A DNA stretch of 64,000 nt from Alphaproteobacteria bacterium. GTDB taxonomy: Bacteria; Pseudomonadota; Alphaproteobacteria; Rs-D84. The DNA is taken from positions 146,359-210,358 of the forward strand of contig JAFYXG010000012.1 of the NCBI GenBank assembly GCA_017546265.1, given 5' to 3'. Below, in pieces: positions 4,111 through 53,518 of the stretch. A program made the position numbers and the translations under genes. How positions within the stretch are numbered: the stretch's first letter is position 1; every line of letters begins with the position of its first letter. Under the pieces are notes generated by a model. That model did not search any database and was not told where the DNA came from. It was given only the letters and a program-made list of their open reading frames with translations.

Positions 4111-4701
4111 ATGATTGGCAAATTGCAAGGCATAGTTAACTATATCGGTGATGGTTTTGTTATTTTAATGGTAAATGGTGTTGGATACAAGGTGCATACC
4201 GCTGAATATCTGACACACAAATCAACAGTGGAATTATGGATTGAAACGGTTGTTCGTGAAGATTCCATTCGTCTGTTTGGCTTTACATCTTTAAATGGAC
4301 AGAATTTGTTTAATATGTTGACTGGTGTGTCGGGGGTGGGGCCTAAGGTTGCGTTGGCAATACTGGGGACGATAAATTCAGATACGTTGATGTCTGCAAT
4401 CGCAACAGGGGACGCTAAAACAATTGCCACTGCACCGGGGGTGGGGAAAAAGATGGCAGAGAAAATCATTGTTGAACTGAAAAACAAGGTTGGCAGTGTG
4501 TCTGCGACATTGTTTGCCCCAGATGCTGGAACAGATGTGGTGGGGTCAGCACTGGCCGATTTGTTGATGGCGTTAGAGGTATTGGGATATCGCCGTCTGG
4601 ACATTATTGAAATGGCACAGAAATTGGTAAACCAGAATCCATCAGCAGATGTATCCAAACTGGTCCCTATGGCATTAAAGGAAATCAGCAAAGGTAAGTA
4701 A
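4111..4701 (+). CDS. ruvA: Holliday junction DNA helicase subunit RuvA
   Basis: MIGKLQG... OB-fold N-terminus, HhH motifs (GVGPKVA, GVGKKMAEKII), 196 aa. Confidence 0.9.
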   Translation: MIGKLQGIVNYIGDGFVILMVNGVGYKVHTAEYLTHKSTVELWIETVVREDSIRLFGFTSLNGQNLFNMLTGVSGVGPKVALAILGTINSDTLMSAIATGDAKTIATAPGVGKKMAEKIIVELKNKVGSVSATLFAPDAGTDVVGSALADLLMALEVLGYRRLDIIEMAQKLVNQNPSADVSKLVPMALKEISKGK

Positions 4702-4704
4702 AGT

Positions 4705-6024
4705 ATGAATAATAACGATATAATTTTTGCATTATCATCTGGGCACGGTAAATCAGGGGTCGCGGTCATTCGTATATCGGGTGATGGGTTGCACAATATT
4801 TTTTCTGACTTTATCAAGAAAATAGATTTTCAACCCCGTCACGCATATTTTTGCAACTTGTGCGATAATAGCGGAGATTTGATTGACCAATGTTTGGCAA
4901 TGTATTTTTCAGCACCATACTCTTTTACGGGAACGGATGTTATCGAATTACATACCCATGGTGCACCCGCAACTATTAACGCAGTATTTGAATTCTTGAA
5001 ATCGTTGGGAATGCGTATGGCGATGCCAGGTGAATTTTCACGCCGTGCATTTTACAACAATAAAATGGATTTGGCTGATGTTGATGGGTTGGCGGCATTG
5101 CTGGATGCACAGACAGATAAACAGCGACAGTTTGCGTTAAAGTCTATGATGGGGCATGACAGTGATATATATAATTCATGGCGGGAACAGATGGTTGAAA
5201 TATCTGCTTTCGCGGCGGCTGTGTTGGATTATAACTCGGATGATTTGCCGGTAAATATTGGTGAAACAATTGTGACGCGTACACGGCGGTTATATGCCGA
5301 GATTTCAAATGCGTTGGCAAAATATAAAACGGCACGGGCAATTCGTGGGGGGATAAATGTTGTTCTGTGTGGTCAAACCAATGTTGGTAAATCGTCTATA
5401 TTTAATTACTTGGTGGGGACAAATCGTGCAATTGTTTCTGATATTGCGGGGACTACACGTGATGTTGTGTCTGCGAATTTGGATATAGATGGGTATTTGG
5501 TCAATCTGGCCGATACGGCGGGAATTCGTGAAACTGATGATGAAATAGAAAGTATCGGTATTGAACGTACAAAAAATGAAATAGAAAATGCGGATATTAT
5601 TTTGAATGTCTATACGCCAGAAAATATCCCTCAATGGCGAACAGATTATTCGCGTATCGGACCAAATCCAAATATAAATATTGTAAATAAATCTGATACT
5701 GCAACCGATTTTGATTCTGAATTTGGCGTGTATGTGTCCGCCAAAACTGGGGACGGTATGCAACAGTTGTTGGATTTACTGCGGGCAAAGATTCATGAGA
5801 TTACCGATGGTGCAGAGGCTGGCGTGGCAATTAACGCACGAACCCAGGCATTGTTGGAACAGGCACGTTATGAACTGGGGGCTGCAATAGATGCAGGGGA
5901 TAATTTTGATATCTTTGCCGAACATACTCGCCGTGCGGCAGATGCAGTTGGCAAGATATTGGGGACAATCACTGCGACCGAAGTTTTAGATAAAACATTT
6001 AGCCAGTTGTGTCTGGGAAAATAA
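4705..6024 (+). CDS. mnmE: tRNA modification GTPase MnmE/TrmE
   Basis: N-terminal GTD..IELH region, G-domain GQTNVGKSS / DTAGIRE, C-terminal CLGK; 439 aa. Confidence 0.9.
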   Translation: MNNNDIIFALSSGHGKSGVAVIRISGDGLHNIFSDFIKKIDFQPRHAYFCNLCDNSGDLIDQCLAMYFSAPYSFTGTDVIELHTHGAPATINAVFEFLKSLGMRMAMPGEFSRRAFYNNKMDLADVDGLAALLDAQTDKQRQFALKSMMGHDSDIYNSWREQMVEISAFAAAVLDYNSDDLPVNIGETIVTRTRRLYAEISNALAKYKTARAIRGGINVVLCGQTNVGKSSIFNYLVGTNRAIVSDIAGTTRDVVSANLDIDGYLVNLADTAGIRETDDEIESIGIERTKNEIENADIILNVYTPENIPQWRTDYSRIGPNPNINIVNKSDTATDFDSEFGVYVSAKTGDGMQQLLDLLRAKIHEITDGAEAGVAINARTQALLEQARYELGAAIDAGDNFDIFAEHTRRAADAVGKILGTITATEVLDKTFSQLCLGK

Positions 6025-50677: not shown

Positions 50678-51025
50678 ATGCCGTATGAACGTAATGTTGC
50701 AAAAGATATAAGCGATTGTGAATGGCCAAAGCCTGAGTTGCCGGCAGATTTATGTTGTGACGGTTGTGACACGCATTGCAAACTTTCTATGCAGTTAAAT
50801 GTAAGAGATGAAAAGTTTATGCCCGAAAGCGGTAAGCAGAACTTTTATGTTAAACCTGTAATATATGCAGGTGGTGTGGAATTGTATGGTTGTGGTTTGG
50901 CGGCTAGTAAGTCTGCAGAACTTCTTACTGCAGAAACGATGATTGAAATATGTAACGCAGATCTTTTGTATCAAGATGCGTTGGCATGGTGTCGTGCAAC
51001 CTGCAAGCATAGTAAGGTAAAATAA
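50678..51025 (+). CDS. Small cysteine-rich hypothetical protein (CCDGCDTHC cluster)
   Basis: 115 aa ORF with RBS gggagg; 9 Cys; no recognisable family. Confidence 0.4.
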   Translation: MPYERNVAKDISDCEWPKPELPADLCCDGCDTHCKLSMQLNVRDEKFMPESGKQNFYVKPVIYAGGVELYGCGLAASKSAELLTAETMIEICNADLLYQDALAWCRATCKHSKVK

Positions 51026-51026
51026 A

Positions 51027-51143
51027 GTGGAATAATAGACTGGATTGCTACGCTTCGCTCGCAATGACAAAAGTGATTAAGAATCCAAGAGGTTAGACAC
51101 AATTGTCATCGCGAGGGAGTGTAAACGACCGTGGCGATCCAGT
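51027..51143. repeat. Direct repeat copy 1 (~117 bp, internally hairpin-forming) flanking the GIY-YIG gene
   Basis: ggaataatagactggattgc...ctcgcaatgacaa-N33-ttgtcatcgcgag...ggcgatccagt; ~96% identical to 51466-51582. Confidence 0.8.
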
Positions 51144-51155
51144 AAAAAAATCAAA

Positions 51156-51464
51156 ATGAATGAACGAAAGTTTTATGTTTATATAATGTTTAATCGTAGG
51201 AATGGTACACTGTATACTGGCGTAACCAATGACATTGTTAAACGTGTTTGGGAACATAAGAATAAAATAAATCCAGATTCGTTTTCTGCGAAGTATAATT
51301 GTGATAAGTTGGGGTATTGGGAAGATTTTCAATATGTAAATGATGCGATTGAACGTGAAAAGCATATCAAGGCACAATCAAGAAATTATAAATTAGGTTT
51401 GATTGAAAGTATAAATCCAGATTGGTTGGATTTGAGTGTACAAGATATGTTTTGGATTAGGTAA
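51156..51464 (+). CDS. Small GIY-YIG nuclease family protein (COG2827 / UPF0213-like)
   Basis: FYVYIM...GTLYTGVTNDIVKRVWEHK...KYNCDKLGYWEDF...REKHIKAQSRNYKLGLIESINPDW matches the ~100-aa stand-alone GIY-YIG family. Confidence 0.8.
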   Translation: MNERKFYVYIMFNRRNGTLYTGVTNDIVKRVWEHKNKINPDSFSAKYNCDKLGYWEDFQYVNDAIEREKHIKAQSRNYKLGLIESINPDWLDLSVQDMFWIR

Positions 51465-51465
51465 A

Positions 51466-51582
51466 GCGGAATAATAGACTGGATTGCCATGCTTCGCTCG
51501 CAATGACAAAAGTGATTAAGAATCCAAGAGGTTAGACACAATTGTCATCGCGAGGGAGTGCAACGACCGTGGCGATCCAGTG
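51466..51582. repeat. Direct repeat copy 2 flanking the GIY-YIG gene
   Basis: Differs from copy 1 at ~5 positions (gctacgc/gccatgc; gtgtaaacg/gtgcaacg). Confidence 0.8.
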
Positions 51583-51784
51583 AATAGAATCAAATTATAA
51601 ATCTTGATTTTGTTAAAAAATAAGCATATGATATAAAACATGATTTTATTTAAGACTTTCTTTACTACAACTACTACAACCCCGTTGGGGGTGTAATTTC
51701 TGTATTGCGGGCGACTGCGTAAATTCTTATAATCAAACAAGTTTATTTAACAAACGTACTAAATATAAAAAAAGGTAGATAATC

Positions 51785-53518
51785 ATGGCATATGATATTG
51801 AGTTGATGCGTCATTCATTGGCACACGTTATGGCGGCAGCAGTTAAAAAACTGCACCCAGAGGTTAAGTTCGCAGGGGGACCTGCAATTGAAAATGGGTT
51901 CTATTATGACTTTGATACAGAATATCGTTTTTCCGAAGAAGACTTTGCACAAATCGAAAAGGAAATGCGGGATTTAATCAAATCTAATGGACGGTTTGAA
52001 CAACGTAATGTATCAATTGATGAAGCAAAAGAAATCTTTGCAGACCAGCCATATAAAATGGAATGGTTAAACGAATACGATGCGGCAGGTGAAGCGTTGT
52101 CTATCTATACTTTCCGTGATTTTACGGATTTATGCCGTGGACCACACGTTGAATCCTCTAAAGATTTGCCAAGGGATGGATTCAAAATCCGCAGTGTTGC
52201 AGGGGCGTACTGGAAAGGTGATTCCAAAAATAAAATGTTGCAACGTATCTATGTTGATGCATTTGCCAGCAAAGATGAATTAGATAATTTCCTGAAAATG
52301 CAAGAAGAAGCCGCAGCACGCGATAACCGCAAGTTGGGGAAAGATATGGACCTGTTCCACTTTGAACCAGAATATGCACCAGGAGCGGTGTTCTGGCATG
52401 ACAAAGGGTACAAGATGTATCGCCGCCTGATTGAATATGTGCGTGCACGTCAGGAACGGGCAGGGTATCAGGAAATTTCAACGCCGGCGGTTATGGACAG
52501 ATGTCTGTGGGAACGTTCTGGACATTGGGCAAAGTATGGTGAACACAACTATTCCGGTAAAACCCAAGACGGCAAAGTGTTCTGTATTAAACCTATGTCG
52601 TGCCCAGGGGGGATGTTGGTATTCGGACATGGTTTGCGTTCGTACAAAGACCTGCCGTTGTATATGGCCGAATTTGGCAAGGTGCATCGCTATGAAGCAG
52701 CCGGTGGTTTGTCAGGACTGATGCGTGTTCGTGAGTTTACCCAGGACGATGCTCATATCTTCTGTACAGAAGAACAGTTGGAAGAAGAAGTTGTTAAAAT
52801 CCTGAAATTCATCAAGGATATTTATGGTAAGTTTGGATTCGATAAGATTTCTATGAAGTTGGCAACACGTAAAGAATCTGAATTCCGAATCGGGTCAGAT
52901 GAAATCTGGGACAAGGCCGAAGGGGCATTAAAAGCCGCGTTGGATAAAAATGGTATCGAATATGAAATCGCCGAAGGGGATGCCGCCTTCTATGGACCAA
53001 AGATTGATAATTATTTGAAAGATTCTATGGGGCGTGTATGGCAATGTGGTACGGTGCAGTTGGATATGAATCTGCCAGAACGATTTGATTTGTCATATGT
53101 TGGCGAAGATGGTGAAAAGCATCGCCCGATTATGTTGCATCGTGCAATGTTGGGGTCGATTGAACGATTCATGGGTGTGTTGCTGGAATCAACGGGGGGG
53201 AATTTGCCATTGTGGTTAAGCCCAGAGCCGGTCGTAGTCGCACCAATTTCACAAAAGCATGCAGATTACGCAAACGAAGTTGTAGCGGCACTGCGTGATG
53301 CGGGTGTAAATGTGCGTGCAGATTTGCGTGATGAAAAAGTAAACTATAAAATCCGTGAATTGTCGTTGGCAAAAACACCAATTATCGCGGTCGTTGGTGA
53401 AAAAGAAATGGCAGAAAAAATGGTTACTTTGCGTAAATTGGGCCAGGAAAAACAGGAAGTTATGCCACTGGACGAATTTGTCGCAATGATGCAAAATGCA
53501 GTTAAAATGCCATTATAA
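51785..53518 (+). CDS. thrS: Threonyl-tRNA synthetase lacking the N-terminal TGS domain
   Basis: Starts at the editing domain (RHSLAHVM His pair), class II catalytic core and anticodon-binding domain present; 577 aa vs ~640 typical. Confidence 0.9.
   Translation: MAYDIELMRHSLAHVMAAAVKKLHPEVKFAGGPAIENGFYYDFDTEYRFSEEDFAQIEKEMRDLIKSNGRFEQRNVSIDEAKEIFADQPYKMEWLNEYDAAGEALSIYTFRDFTDLCRGPHVESSKDLPRDGFKIRSVAGAYWKGDSKNKMLQRIYVDAFASKDELDNFLKMQEEAAARDNRKLGKDMDLFHFEPEYAPGAVFWHDKGYKMYRRLIEYVRARQERAGYQEISTPAVMDRCLWERSGHWAKYGEHNYSGKTQDGKVFCIKPMSCPGGMLVFGHGLRSYKDLPLYMAEFGKVHRYEAAGGLSGLMRVREFTQDDAHIFCTEEQLEEEVVKILKFIKDIYGKFGFDKISMKLATRKESEFRIGSDEIWDKAEGALKAALDKNGIEYEIAEGDAAFYGPKIDNYLKDSMGRVWQCGTVQLDMNLPERFDLSYVGEDGEKHRPIMLHRAMLGSIERFMGVLLESTGGNLPLWLSPEPVVVAPISQKHADYANEVVAALRDAGVNVRADLRDEKVNYKIRELSLAKTPIIAVVGEKEMAEKMVTLRKLGQEKQEVMPLDEFVAMMQNAVKMPL

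What the first reader, a model, noticed from the sequence alone, without database searches (positions are those of the whole stretch)
51027..51582. Stand-alone GIY-YIG nuclease gene precisely bracketed by two 117-bp structured direct repeats
A 102-aa COG2827/UPF0213-type GIY-YIG protein (FYVYIM...GTLYTGVTNDIVKRVWEHK...) sits between a Cys-rich orphan ORF and thrS. It is flanked 10-13 bp away on each side by ~96%-identical direct repeats (51027-51143 and 51466-51582).

Each repeat is itself a long imperfect hairpin: an outer stem actggat.../...atccagt and an inner stem ctcgcaatgacaa / ttgtcatcgcgag around a ~33-nt loop.

This looks like a self-contained cassette, such as a homing-endonuclease-like element that duplicated its structured target on insertion, or a MITE that captured a nuclease. 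This small GIY-YIG family is widespread but poorly understood, so a copy with clear mobile-element-like boundaries is informative.
Basis: seen in the sequence. Interest (0 to 1): 0.6.

Follow-up and report, generated by a model that had tools for sequence, protein, structure and literature searches.

The report
Ssn ssDNA nuclease gene with hairpin repeats
The small nuclease gene and its two flanking structured repeats are real, but they are a new example of the Ssn system described in 2025, in which a single-strand-specific GIY-YIG DNA nuclease gene sits between copies of the hairpin motif it recognises.

Summary
A 102-aa GIY-YIG gene (51156-51464) lies between two direct repeats that are about 96% identical. 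Each repeat folds into a 105-nt imperfect hairpin, and the 64-kb window has no other copy.

The kind of system is already known. It is an Ssn-family gene (Chenal et al. 2025, Nat Commun, PMC11893778), a site-specific ssDNA endonuclease flanked by Ssn-related motifs (SRM/NTS).
- The protein is 42% identical (E 6e-23) to the 94-aa N. gonorrhoeae SsnA orthologue, and Y9, Y20 and E68 align with its Y6, Y17 and E64.
- Each "117-bp repeat" is two SRM-like modules (GTC, 5-bp stem, loop, stem, C) placed head-to-head around a 34-nt spacer.
- In 80 homologous loci from many phyla, 71 carry such modules within 200 bp of the gene, an 11-fold enrichment.

Three details appear to go beyond that paper, as far as I read it:
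- This ATTGC/GCAAT module class is missed by the published SRM search string.
- The modules occur as doublets, and as tandem arrays in relatives.
- Relatives show three states at the same site: no hairpin, one hairpin, or hairpin-gene-hairpin. Trees favour loss by recombination between the repeats.

Whether the cassette moves actively is not shown. It is a new member of a known kind, of moderate interest.

The parts
51023..51157 (+). Left copy of the direct repeat. It runs from the TAA stop of the Cys-rich ORF to the ATG of ssn.
   Evidence: It is 94% identical to 51462-51595.
51039..51143 (.). Left 105-nt SRM doublet, a long imperfect hairpin.
   Evidence: DNA fold -23.6 (+) / -21.6 (-) kcal/mol, z about -5.4. 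RNA fold -45.3, z -6.9.
51040..51069 (-). SRM-like module on the minus strand: TGTCATTGCGAGCGAAGCGTAGCAATCCAG (GTC, ATTGC stem, GCAAT, C).
   Evidence: It has the same architecture as the Neisseria NTS CGTCATTCCCGCG..GCGGGAATCYRG (PMC11893778; L254).
51070..51103 (.). 34-nt spacer between the two head-to-head modules. The inferred Ssn cut sites on both strands would fall here.
   Evidence: Sequence. The cut position is inferred from the statement in PMC11893778 that cleavage occurs a few nt 5' of the motif.
51104..51142 (+). SRM-like module on the plus strand: TGTCATCGCGAGGGAGTGTAAACGACCGTGGCGATCCAG (GTC, ATCGC stem, GCGAT, C). It points towards ssn.
   Evidence: In 46 of 61 homologous loci the nearest upstream module has this orientation.
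51156..51464 (+). ssn gene: a 102-aa single-domain GIY-YIG nuclease of the Ssn family.
   Evidence: Pfam PF01541, E 7e-15. 42% identity, E 6e-23, to the N. gonorrhoeae SsnA orthologue, with Y9/Y20/E68 aligned to Y6/Y17/E64. AF2 pLDDT 92. GC 31% against 42.5% for the window.
51462..51595 (+). Right copy of the direct repeat. It starts at the TAA stop of ssn.
51478..51581 (.). Right 104-nt SRM doublet hairpin.
   Evidence: 96.2% identical to the left doublet. RNA fold -47.0, z -5.7.
51479..51508 (-). SRM-like module on the minus strand: TGTCATTGCGAGCGAAGCATGGCAATCCAG. It points towards ssn.
   Evidence: In 45 of 62 homologous loci the nearest downstream module has this orientation.
51543..51580 (+). 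SRM-like module on the plus strand: TGTCATCGCGAGGGAGTGCAACGACCGTGGCGATCCAG.
50678..51025 (+). Cys-rich orphan ORF (115 aa). It is the left neighbour and was used as the anchor for orthologous sites.
   Evidence: No Pfam or NCBIfam hit. Only 8 homologues were found.
51785..53518 (+). thrS, the right neighbour. A promoter-like site lies at 51604-51632, just past the right repeat.
   Evidence: Pfam domains tRNA-synt_2b, HGTP_anticodon and tRNA_SAD. Promoter scan.

Best explanation
The locus is an Ssn-family gene, a single-domain GIY-YIG site-specific ssDNA endonuclease, embedded in its own recognition repeats (Ssn-related motifs, SRM).

**Anatomy.** Each 105-nt "structured repeat" is a doublet of two SRM-like modules. 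One is on each strand, and their 5' GTC ends face each other across a 34-nt spacer. The gene sits between the 3' (CCAG) ends of two modules.

**Inferred mechanism, by homology with Neisseria SsnA.** The protein would bind the module when the DNA is single-stranded, for example during replication, repair, or uptake of transforming or conjugative DNA. It would read the stem together with the GTC on the 5' side and the C just 3' of the stem. It would then nick a few nucleotides 5' of the motif, which here falls inside the spacer. It would not cut dsDNA or RNA.

**The 439-bp unit.** The unit of gene plus one doublet is bounded by direct repeats of about 134 bp. In this lineage it is lost, or possibly gained, by recombination between those repeats. 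That leaves a solo doublet.

**What is shown and what is inferred**
- Shown: anatomy, homology, the repeat-gene association, and the site polymorphism.
- Inferred: enzymatic activity, cut sites and biological role.
For: **Homology**
- tblastn E 1e-13 and BLASTP 42% identity / E 6e-23 to the 94-aa N. gonorrhoeae SsnA orthologue. That gene is itself flanked by canonical NTS repeats.
- The residues mutated in the paper (Y6, Y17, E64) align with Y9, Y20 and E68.
- 49-56% identity (E 1e-29 to 1e-33) to 15 proteins whose genes are flanked by motifs that match the published SRM string. L122 carries an exact NTS.

**Module anatomy**
- GTC, then a 5-bp stem, a loop of up to 45 nt, the return stem and a C. 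This applies to all four window modules.
- These are the features that mutagenesis showed to matter for cleavage (the 3 nt upstream of the stem) and for binding (the C after the stem) (PMC11893778).

**Association across 80 loci from many phyla**
- 71 loci have at least one module within 200 bp of the gene, and 52 have one on both sides.
- Density is 6.0 per kb near the gene against 0.54 per kb further away.
- The arrangement SRM(+), gene, SRM(-) holds in about 75% of loci.

**Reverse direction**
- Of 120 metagenomic loci with doublets, 12 have an ssn gene within 400 bp.
- None of the 28 viral-contig loci has one. This is the pattern of a dispersed repeat with a rare master gene.

**Close homologues (70-81% identity)**
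- They sit in different genomic contexts, always next to such hairpins.
- One, L012, has a tandem array of about 8 + 3 units.

**Site states in relatives**
- Occupied: window, L001/L002, L042, L046.
- Solo hairpin: L047, L128.
- Naive (no hairpin, no gene): L131.
Against: - The published degenerate SRM search string finds nothing in the window. The ATTGC/ATCGC stems fall outside it.
- The single modules fold only weakly as DNA (-3.4 to -6.1 kcal/mol, z not significant), whereas the whole doublet folds strongly. In ssDNA the long hairpin could hide the individual SRM stem-loops, so the real substrate geometry is unknown.
- The 64-kb window holds only these four modules. Other matches to the loose definition are at chance level, 20 observed against 14.5 expected. 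A genome-wide marking role like that in Neisseria cannot be assumed here.
- No biochemistry exists for this clade.
- The CDD cd10448 assignment could not be checked.
- No promoter-like site lies between the hairpin and the ATG.
Confidence: 0.85

Rival explanations
1. Active mobile cassette. Gene plus doublet would be an autonomous element. The Ssn nick at a hairpin would start recombination or copying into another hairpin, so the target hairpin ends up duplicated on both sides. Solo doublets would then be non-autonomous copies, as REPINs are for RAYTs.
For: - IS-like inverted modules flank the gene in about 65% of 80 loci.
- Close homologues lie in different contexts.
- Presence/absence polymorphism occurs at one site, including within about 94-97% nucleotide identity (L001 versus L128).
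- The gene's GC is 31% against 42.5% for the window.
- Doublets are dispersed in contigs of 29-65% GC, and tandem arrays exist.
- Proteins are 50-64% identical across phyla.
- The authors of PMC11893778 raise the same hypothesis.
Against: - Trees put occupied sites basally, and the solo site L128 nests inside the occupied clade. Deletion between the 134-bp direct repeats therefore explains the empty sites without any insertion.
- No consistent target-site duplication was seen by inspection of the flanks.
- No ligase or strand-transfer activity is known for GIY-YIG domains.
- The cassette is syntenic in relatives whose Cys-rich ORF is only 70% identical, so it is long-lived at this site.
Confidence: 0.25
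2. The hairpins act at the RNA level, as terminators, attenuators, stabilisers or a small RNA. Their position next to the nuclease gene would then be incidental.
For: - Strong RNA fold (z -5.7 to -6.9).
- The left hairpin follows the stop of the Cys-rich ORF, and the right one follows the stop of ssn.
- REP-type elements are known to affect mRNA stability (general knowledge).
Against: - No Rfam match.
- Both strands fold equally well.
- No T-tract follows the hairpins, and the terminator scan does not report either long hairpin as a terminator.
- The conserved parts are the GTC...C tags and the stems, which are shared with motifs shown to be bound as ssDNA and not as RNA (PMC11893778).
- The association with ssn holds across phyla whatever the neighbouring genes.
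Confidence: 0.05
3. Assembly artefact. The duplicated hairpin, or the solo-hairpin alleles, would come from mis-assembly of a repeat in metagenomic data.
For: - Many related contigs break inside the hairpin (L001, L129, L130, L046).
- The window is 100% identical to a MEGAHIT contig (L253).
Against: - L002, from another sample, spans hairpin, gene, hairpin and the thrS leader at 98.7% identity.
- L042 and L003 show the same architecture with diverged sequence.
- The solo allele L128 has a private SNP in the spacer (AAAGTTATT) and was recovered in two samples.
- L047 is an independent, diverged solo allele.
Confidence: 0.02

Closest known systems
Ssn nucleases with NTS/SRM repeats (SsnA of Neisseria meningitidis; Chenal et al. 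2025, Nat Commun 16:2388, PMC11893778)
   Same: - A single-domain GIY-YIG protein of about 100 aa, 42% identical to gonococcal SsnA, with the catalytic Y, Y and E conserved.
- The gene is flanked on both sides by oriented hairpin motifs of the form GTC, stem-loop, C.
- The motifs are also dispersed without the gene.
- The layout is IS-like.
   Different: - The stems are ATTGC/GCAAT and ATCGC/GCGAT rather than ATTCCCGC/GCGGGAAT, and they are not matched by the published SRM search string.
- One module has a long internal segment of about 21 nt between the stem halves.
- The modules are organised as head-to-head doublets that form a 105-nt hairpin. I did not find doublets, tandem arrays or empty sites mentioned in the paper.
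- Only four modules occur in 64 kb, against hundreds per Neisseria genome.
- Activity and biological role are untested here.
REP/REPIN elements with RAYT (TnpA-REP) genes
   Same: - A single-copy nuclease gene flanked by inverted copies of a short tagged palindrome.
- The same palindromes are dispersed through intergenic regions, often as inverted doublets (REPIN-like) or clusters (BIME-like).
- Recognition occurs as ssDNA hairpins.
   Different: - The enzyme is a GIY-YIG nuclease, not an HUH/Y1 transposase.
- The tag is GTC...C rather than GTAG/CGTC.
- No evidence exists for strand transfer.
Neisseria dRS3 / NIME repeats
   Same: The NTS is an extended dRS3, and the modules have the same layout as those in the window. 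Repeats cluster around genes.
   Different: The sequence class and host differ. dRS3 elements are also phage integration targets, and nothing of that kind was seen here.
UPF0213 / YhbQ-type GIY-YIG proteins (E. coli YhbQ, B. halodurans BH0048, PDB 1zg2)
   Same: Same fold and size. 1zg2 is the best structural match.
   Different: Identity to YhbQ is only about 21%. No SRM association was examined or is known for that subfamily.
Free-standing GIY-YIG homing endonucleases (I-TevI, Seg proteins)
   Same: GIY-YIG catalytic domain, and a gene with mobile-element-like behaviour.
   Different: - No DNA-binding domain.
- TIGR01453 scores 18 bits against a cut-off of 56.
- No phage homologue was found.
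- Characterised Ssn relatives cut ssDNA only.

Membership tests
Ssn family (cd10448-type GIY-YIG ssDNA endonucleases) | Single-domain GIY-YIG protein of about 94-105 aa with no extra DNA-binding domain. | tested here: met
   102 aa. PF01541 covers residues 5-77 and nothing else matches. The AF2 model is one compact domain with pLDDT 92. PDB fold matches are GIY-YIG domains.
Ssn family (cd10448-type GIY-YIG ssDNA endonucleases) | Homology to Neisseria SsnA at E < 1e-10, the criterion used in the paper. | tested here: met
   tblastn E 1e-13 in a 7.3-Gb database. BLASTP 42% identity over 86 aa, E 6e-23, to the 94-aa N. gonorrhoeae orthologue L254:1489-1773. The meningococcal protein itself was not available.
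Ssn family (cd10448-type GIY-YIG ssDNA endonucleases) | Catalytic residues equivalent to SsnA Y6, Y17 and E64. | tested here: met
   Y9, Y20 and E68 align with them. Y20, R30, E68 and N87 are invariant in 35 homologues.
Ssn family (cd10448-type GIY-YIG ssDNA endonucleases) | Assignment to CDD model cd10448. | not testable with these tools
   CDD is not among the libraries. Indirectly, the protein is far from E. coli YhbQ/UPF0213.
Ssn family (cd10448-type GIY-YIG ssDNA endonucleases) | Gene flanked by motifs that match the published SRM search string HGTCWYN(0-2)YYVSBRHN(0-5)WNVSBRGN(0-2)RNCYNB. | tested here: not met
   0 matches in the window. Only 15 of 80 homologous loci match within 250 bp. 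The string requires YY after GTCWY, and ATTGC stems violate that.
Ssn family (cd10448-type GIY-YIG ssDNA endonucleases) | Gene flanked on both sides by oriented hairpin motifs with the features shown to matter: GTC 5' of the stem, a palindromic stem, and C just 3' of it. | tested here: met
   Four modules at 51040-51069(-), 51104-51142(+), 51479-51508(-) and 51543-51580(+). The same definition gives an 11-fold enrichment next to 80 homologues.
Ssn family (cd10448-type GIY-YIG ssDNA endonucleases) | Site-specific cleavage of ssDNA only, a few nt 5' of the motif. | not testable with these tools
   This needs purified protein and oligonucleotides.
UPF0213 / YhbQ subfamily | Close sequence similarity to E. 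coli YhbQ. | tested here: not met
   BLASTP aligns only 28 residues (32% identity, E 2e-5). hhalign gives 21% identity and probability 86%.
GIY-YIG homing endonucleases | Catalytic domain joined to a DNA-binding domain, with a match to the group I intron endonuclease model. | tested here: not met
   Single domain. TIGR01453 scores 18.4 bits against a cut-off of 56. No homologue in 50,697 phage records.
REP/RAYT (REPIN) systems | HUH/Y1 tyrosine transposase-like gene. | tested here: not met
   The protein is GIY-YIG. The resemblance is in architecture only.
Insertion sequence / MITE | Terminal inverted repeats with a short target-site duplication, and a recognised transposase. | tested here: inconclusive
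   Inverted modules flank the gene. No consistent short duplication was seen at doublet borders (by inspection). GIY-YIG is not a known transposase fold, so this is inference.

The most novel reading that the evidence does not exclude
Gene plus SRM doublet is an autonomous mobile cassette of a new mechanistic class. A GIY-YIG ssDNA nickase, rather than a DDE, HUH, serine or tyrosine enzyme, would drive copying of itself and of its non-autonomous doublets (a GIY-YIG analogue of RAYT/REPIN) through hairpin-targeted nicks and host recombination or replication. The three-state site seen here (naive, solo doublet, doublet-gene-doublet) would then be a natural record of that mobility.
Probability: 0.2. 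Interest if true: 0.75.

Novelty: new member of a known kind. Interest (0 to 1): 0.35.

Why it matters
The finding independently picks out, from raw sequence, a system that was only characterised in 2025. Ssn nucleases are the first known site-specific ssDNA-only endonucleases and have biotechnological uses.

This example adds three practical points:
- A large class of cognate motifs, with ATTGC/GCAAT stems, lies next to about half of the 80 sampled homologues but is invisible to the published search string. Published SRM counts are therefore probably underestimates.
- The motifs can be organised as head-to-head doublets and as tandem arrays. This strengthens the parallel with REPINs and BIMEs.
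- One orthologous site shows naive, solo-doublet and occupied states in related gut Alphaproteobacteria. That gives a concrete place to test whether Ssn cassettes are mobile or are merely lost by repeat recombination.

None of this overturns current understanding.

Tried and rejected
- **Rfam.** Searches of the whole window, of the locus at a permissive threshold, and of the L012 array gave nothing relevant.
- **PDB sequence search.** No hit, so no Ssn structure has been deposited.
- **NCBIfam.** Only a sub-threshold intron-endonuclease hit.
- **Literature.** Searches for GIY-YIG with COG2827, UPF0213, YhbQ, MITE or REPIN/RAYT, and for the motif sequence itself, found nothing useful. The link came only after I recognised the GTCATTCC..GGAATCCAG variants as Neisseria dRS3-like and searched for that term.
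- **Meningococcal SsnA sequence.** The paper's supplements are not held. A protein search seeded with a betaproteobacterial homologue returned only Gallionellaceae-type proteins in its top 120. Gonococcal chromosomes mislabelled as plasmids in PLSDB supplied the orthologue instead.
- **CRISPR-like reading of the L012 array.** Rejected, because the spacers between units are near-identical and not variable.
- **Integron attC reading.** Rejected by inspection, because the hairpins have no GTTRRRY/RYYYAAC core sites.
- **Target-site duplications.** Looked for at doublet borders by eye. None was consistent.
- **Phage origin.** No homologue in GenBank phages.
Full report
**1. The observation**

- An ATG-initiated ORF at 51156-51464 encodes a 102-aa protein. 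Its only family match is the GIY-YIG catalytic domain, PF01541, at E 7e-15 over residues 5-77.
- It lies between a 115-aa Cys-rich ORF with no family match (50678-51025) and thrS (51785-53518).
- The duplicated stretch is a little longer: 51023-51157 and 51462-51595, 94% identical. In both copies it begins at the TAA stop of the gene upstream.
- Each copy contains a hairpin of about 105 nt (51039-51143 and 51478-51581). The outer stem is ACTGGAT/ATCCAGT, the inner stem is CTCGCAATGACAA/TTGTCATCGCGAG, and the centre is 34 nt.
- The fold is far better than that of shuffled sequence, with RNA or DNA parameters and on either strand. z-scores run from -5.3 to -6.9, and 0 of 200 shuffles fold as well.
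- The 58-nt core occurs exactly twice in the window, against none expected by chance.
- Contigs from other samples reproduce the arrangement: L002 at 98.7% identity over 51023-51800, and L001 at 96.7%.

**2. Relatives of the gene**

The protein has hundreds of homologues. Those at 70-81% identity lie in quite different neighbourhoods:

| Locus | Neighbouring genes |
|---|---|
| L003 | mraZ / L33 |
| L005 | dnaA / bipA |
| L006-L011 | L17 / DUF3419 |
| L012 | era / rlpA-like |

Each of these has the same kind of hairpin beside the gene. It may be on both sides, on one side only, or present as half-units. In L012, from NCBI assembly GCA_949011545.1, about eight hairpin units with a period of about 137 bp precede the gene and three follow it. 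The units are near-identical, so this is a tandem array of the repeat and not a spacer-bearing array.

Comparing the hairpins shows that the arms are conserved and the centres are not. Each arm is a module of about 30-40 nt: CTGGATTGC, a variable segment, then CTCGCAATGACA, or its reverse complement.

**3. The module is widespread**

An exact-pattern scan of IMG/VR found the module in 28 loci of very different base composition. None of them had a GIY-YIG gene.

A profile-guided scan of one genome per species returned 80 loci with homologues. These were 46-71% identical to the window protein and came from Alphaproteobacteria, Bacteroidales, Gastranaerophilales, Firmicutes, Patescibacteria, Verrucomicrobiota, Nitrospirales and others.
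- About half carry the GGATTGC...GCAATGAC module within about 100 bp of the gene.
- Reading the flanks of the rest showed variants of the same design: GTCATTCCGGCGCAGGCCGGAATCCAG, GTCATCCCGGGCTTGACCCGGGATCCAG and so on.
- The common design is GTC, a stem-loop whose sequence differs between lineages, then C(CAG).

I then used a purely structural definition: GTC, a 5-bp stem, a loop of up to 45 nt, the return stem, then C.
- 71 of 80 loci have at least one such element within 200 bp of the gene, and 52 of 80 have one on both sides.
- Density is 6.0 per kb near the gene against 0.54 per kb more than 1 kb away.
- The nearest upstream element points towards the gene in 46 of 61 loci, and the nearest downstream element does so in 45 of 62.
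- The window has exactly this layout.

**4. It is a known system**

The GTCATTCC...GGAATCCAG variants resemble the Neisseria dRS3 repeat. That lead came from my own knowledge. Searching for the term found Chenal et al. 2025 (PMC11893778). The paper reports the following:
- The 94-aa GIY-YIG protein SsnA of N. meningitidis binds the 28-nt NTS motif CGTCATTCCCGCGMAVGCGGGAATCYRG only as ssDNA and cuts a few nt upstream.
- The three nucleotides 5' of the palindrome govern cleavage, and the C after the palindrome governs binding.
- dsDNA and RNA are not substrates.
- SsnA lowers transformation by NTS-bearing DNA.
- Homologues (CDD cd10448) across phyla are flanked by "Ssn-related motifs" (SRM): 71% have at least one and 42% have one on both sides.
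- The authors note the IS-like NTS-ssnA-NTS layout and the parallel with REP/RAYT.

**5. Membership tests**

The meningococcal sequence was not obtainable. Two N. gonorrhoeae chromosomes filed as plasmids in PLSDB matched the window protein at E 1e-13.
- The locus L254 holds a 94-aa ORF with Y6, Y17 and E64, the residues mutated in the paper. It is surrounded by canonical NTS copies.
- The window protein is 42% identical to it over 86 residues (E 6e-23), with Y9, Y20 and E68 aligned.
- The window protein is also 49-56% identical (E 1e-29 to 1e-33) to the 15 proteins in my 80-locus set whose flanks match the published SRM string. One of these, L122, has an exact NTS.
- The AF2 model (pLDDT 92) is a single GIY-YIG domain. 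The nearest solved folds are BH0048, Slx1 and UvrC-N, and no Ssn structure is deposited.

One defining feature fails as literally written. The published degenerate SRM string finds nothing in the window, because ATTGC/ATCGC stems break its YY requirement. The features that the paper's mutagenesis shows to matter are all present.

**6. What each "117-bp repeat" is**

Each is a doublet. One module lies on the minus strand (51040-51069 and 51479-51508) and one on the plus strand (51104-51142 and 51543-51580). Their GTC ends face each other across a 34-nt spacer.

If the enzyme behaves like SsnA, both strands would be nicked inside that spacer. This is inference.

As DNA, the single modules fold only weakly (-3.4 to -6.1 kcal/mol, not better than shuffles), whereas the doublet folds at about -22 to -24 kcal/mol. 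Which structure the enzyme sees is therefore open.

Thirteen of them have an ssn gene in the locus, twelve within 400 bp of a doublet. A single-copy gene in a genome of a few Mb would lie that close to a random site well under 0.1% of the time. That estimate is my own, not a computed control. So doublets are mostly dispersed without the gene, yet are strongly linked to it.

In a term search of the paper's main text I found no mention of doublets, tandem arrays or REPINs. I also saw no discussion of empty sites in the sections I read.

**7. The empty-site test**

Homologues of the Cys-rich ORF served as anchors. Relatives show three states between that ORF and thrS:

| State | Loci |
|---|---|
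| Doublet, ssn, doublet | window, L001/L002, L042, L046 (its right doublet is truncated after ACTGGATTGCCAC and followed by unrelated sequence) |
| Single doublet followed directly by the thrS leader | L047, L128 |
| No doublet and no gene; a second Cys-rich paralogue and a small hairpin instead | L131 |

L128 encodes the same Cys-rich protein as the occupied L001, was recovered in two samples, and has a private SNP in the spacer.

The difference between the occupied and solo states is exactly one 439-bp unit.

Neighbour-joining trees of the Cys-rich protein and of the HlyIII gene put occupied sites basally and nest L128 within the occupied clade. Deletion by recombination between the direct repeats is therefore the more economical reading, although insertion is not excluded.

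The left and right doublets are 96% identical in the window but 86% identical in L042. This suggests homogenisation between the copies in the window's lineage.

The gene's GC is 31% against 42.5% for the window. Together with its scattered genomic contexts, this argues that the cassette has moved between loci and genomes at some time.

**8. Verdict**

The finding is real and correctly described. It is a new member of the Ssn/SRM system, not a new kind of element.

The points worth keeping are:
- a motif class that the published search string misses;
- the doublet and array organisation;
- a three-state orthologous site that makes the mobility hypothesis testable.

Activity, cut sites and biological role in this organism are inferred, not shown. 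The organism is probably an uncultured alphaproteobacterium, judging from the nearest named loci (uncultured Alphaproteobacteria and Rickettsiales MAGs, L048 and L049).

Noticed in passing
window 51604-51700: thrS leader. A promoter-like TTGATT-17-TATGAT sits at 51604-51632, directly after the right repeat. A small GC hairpin, ACCCCGTTGGGGGT, lies at 51679-51692. Both are conserved in relatives with and without the cassette (L047, L128, L131), so they may be a thrS regulatory leader.
   Followed up: partly
window 50678-51025; L131 1027-1768: The Cys-rich 115-aa ORF is a true orphan, with only 8 homologues among 5.8 billion proteins and no Pfam or NCBIfam hit. It has a conserved C-terminal ...ALAWCR.TCKHSK. 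In L131 it is present as two tandem paralogues.
   Followed up: partly
L012 1461-2001; also L003 about 4540-4860 and the last 60 nt of L046: A second, unrelated palindromic repeat family (GGTTGGAG..ATTAAGAAC...CTCCAACC, about 80-108 nt) lies next to the SRM arrays in relatives. L012 has three copies. It has no Rfam match.
   Followed up: partly
L014-L041 (IMG/VR contigs): SRM modules occur on 28 contigs classed as viral, often as tail-to-tail pairs 15-25 nt apart. None has an ssn gene, and no ssn homologue exists in 50,697 GenBank phage records. They could be targets of host Ssn enzymes, or the contigs could be prophage or host fragments.
   Followed up: partly
L049 4983-5294 and 8657-8968; L057 4992-5714; L099 4989-5669: Some genomes carry two ssn copies close together. 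They are inverted and 3.4 kb apart in L049, and tandem in L057 and L099. Each copy has its own modules.
   Followed up: no
L254 (NZ_CP119140.1) and NZ_CP119142.1: PLSDB lists two 2.17-Mb N. gonorrhoeae chromosomes as plasmids. The ssnA orthologue there is not in the gene table that PLSDB distributes.
   Followed up: yes
P0020, P0067: Over-long gene calls for some homologues read through the modules and give peptide tails such as VIASEVKQS, LDCF..LAMT and WIASL..RNDM. In annotated proteomes such tails may mark SRM read-through.
   Followed up: partly
window 1-64000: No Rfam family reaches its gathering score anywhere in the 64-kb window, so there is no tRNA, riboswitch or other known RNA gene in this stretch.
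   Followed up: no
window 51156-51464: No sigma-70-like promoter and no clear Shine-Dalgarno sequence lie in the 12 nt between the left hairpin and the ATG (AAAAAAATCAAA). The gene may be read through from the gltX-like / HlyIII / Cys-rich ORF operon, or from a promoter inside the hairpin.
   Followed up: partly
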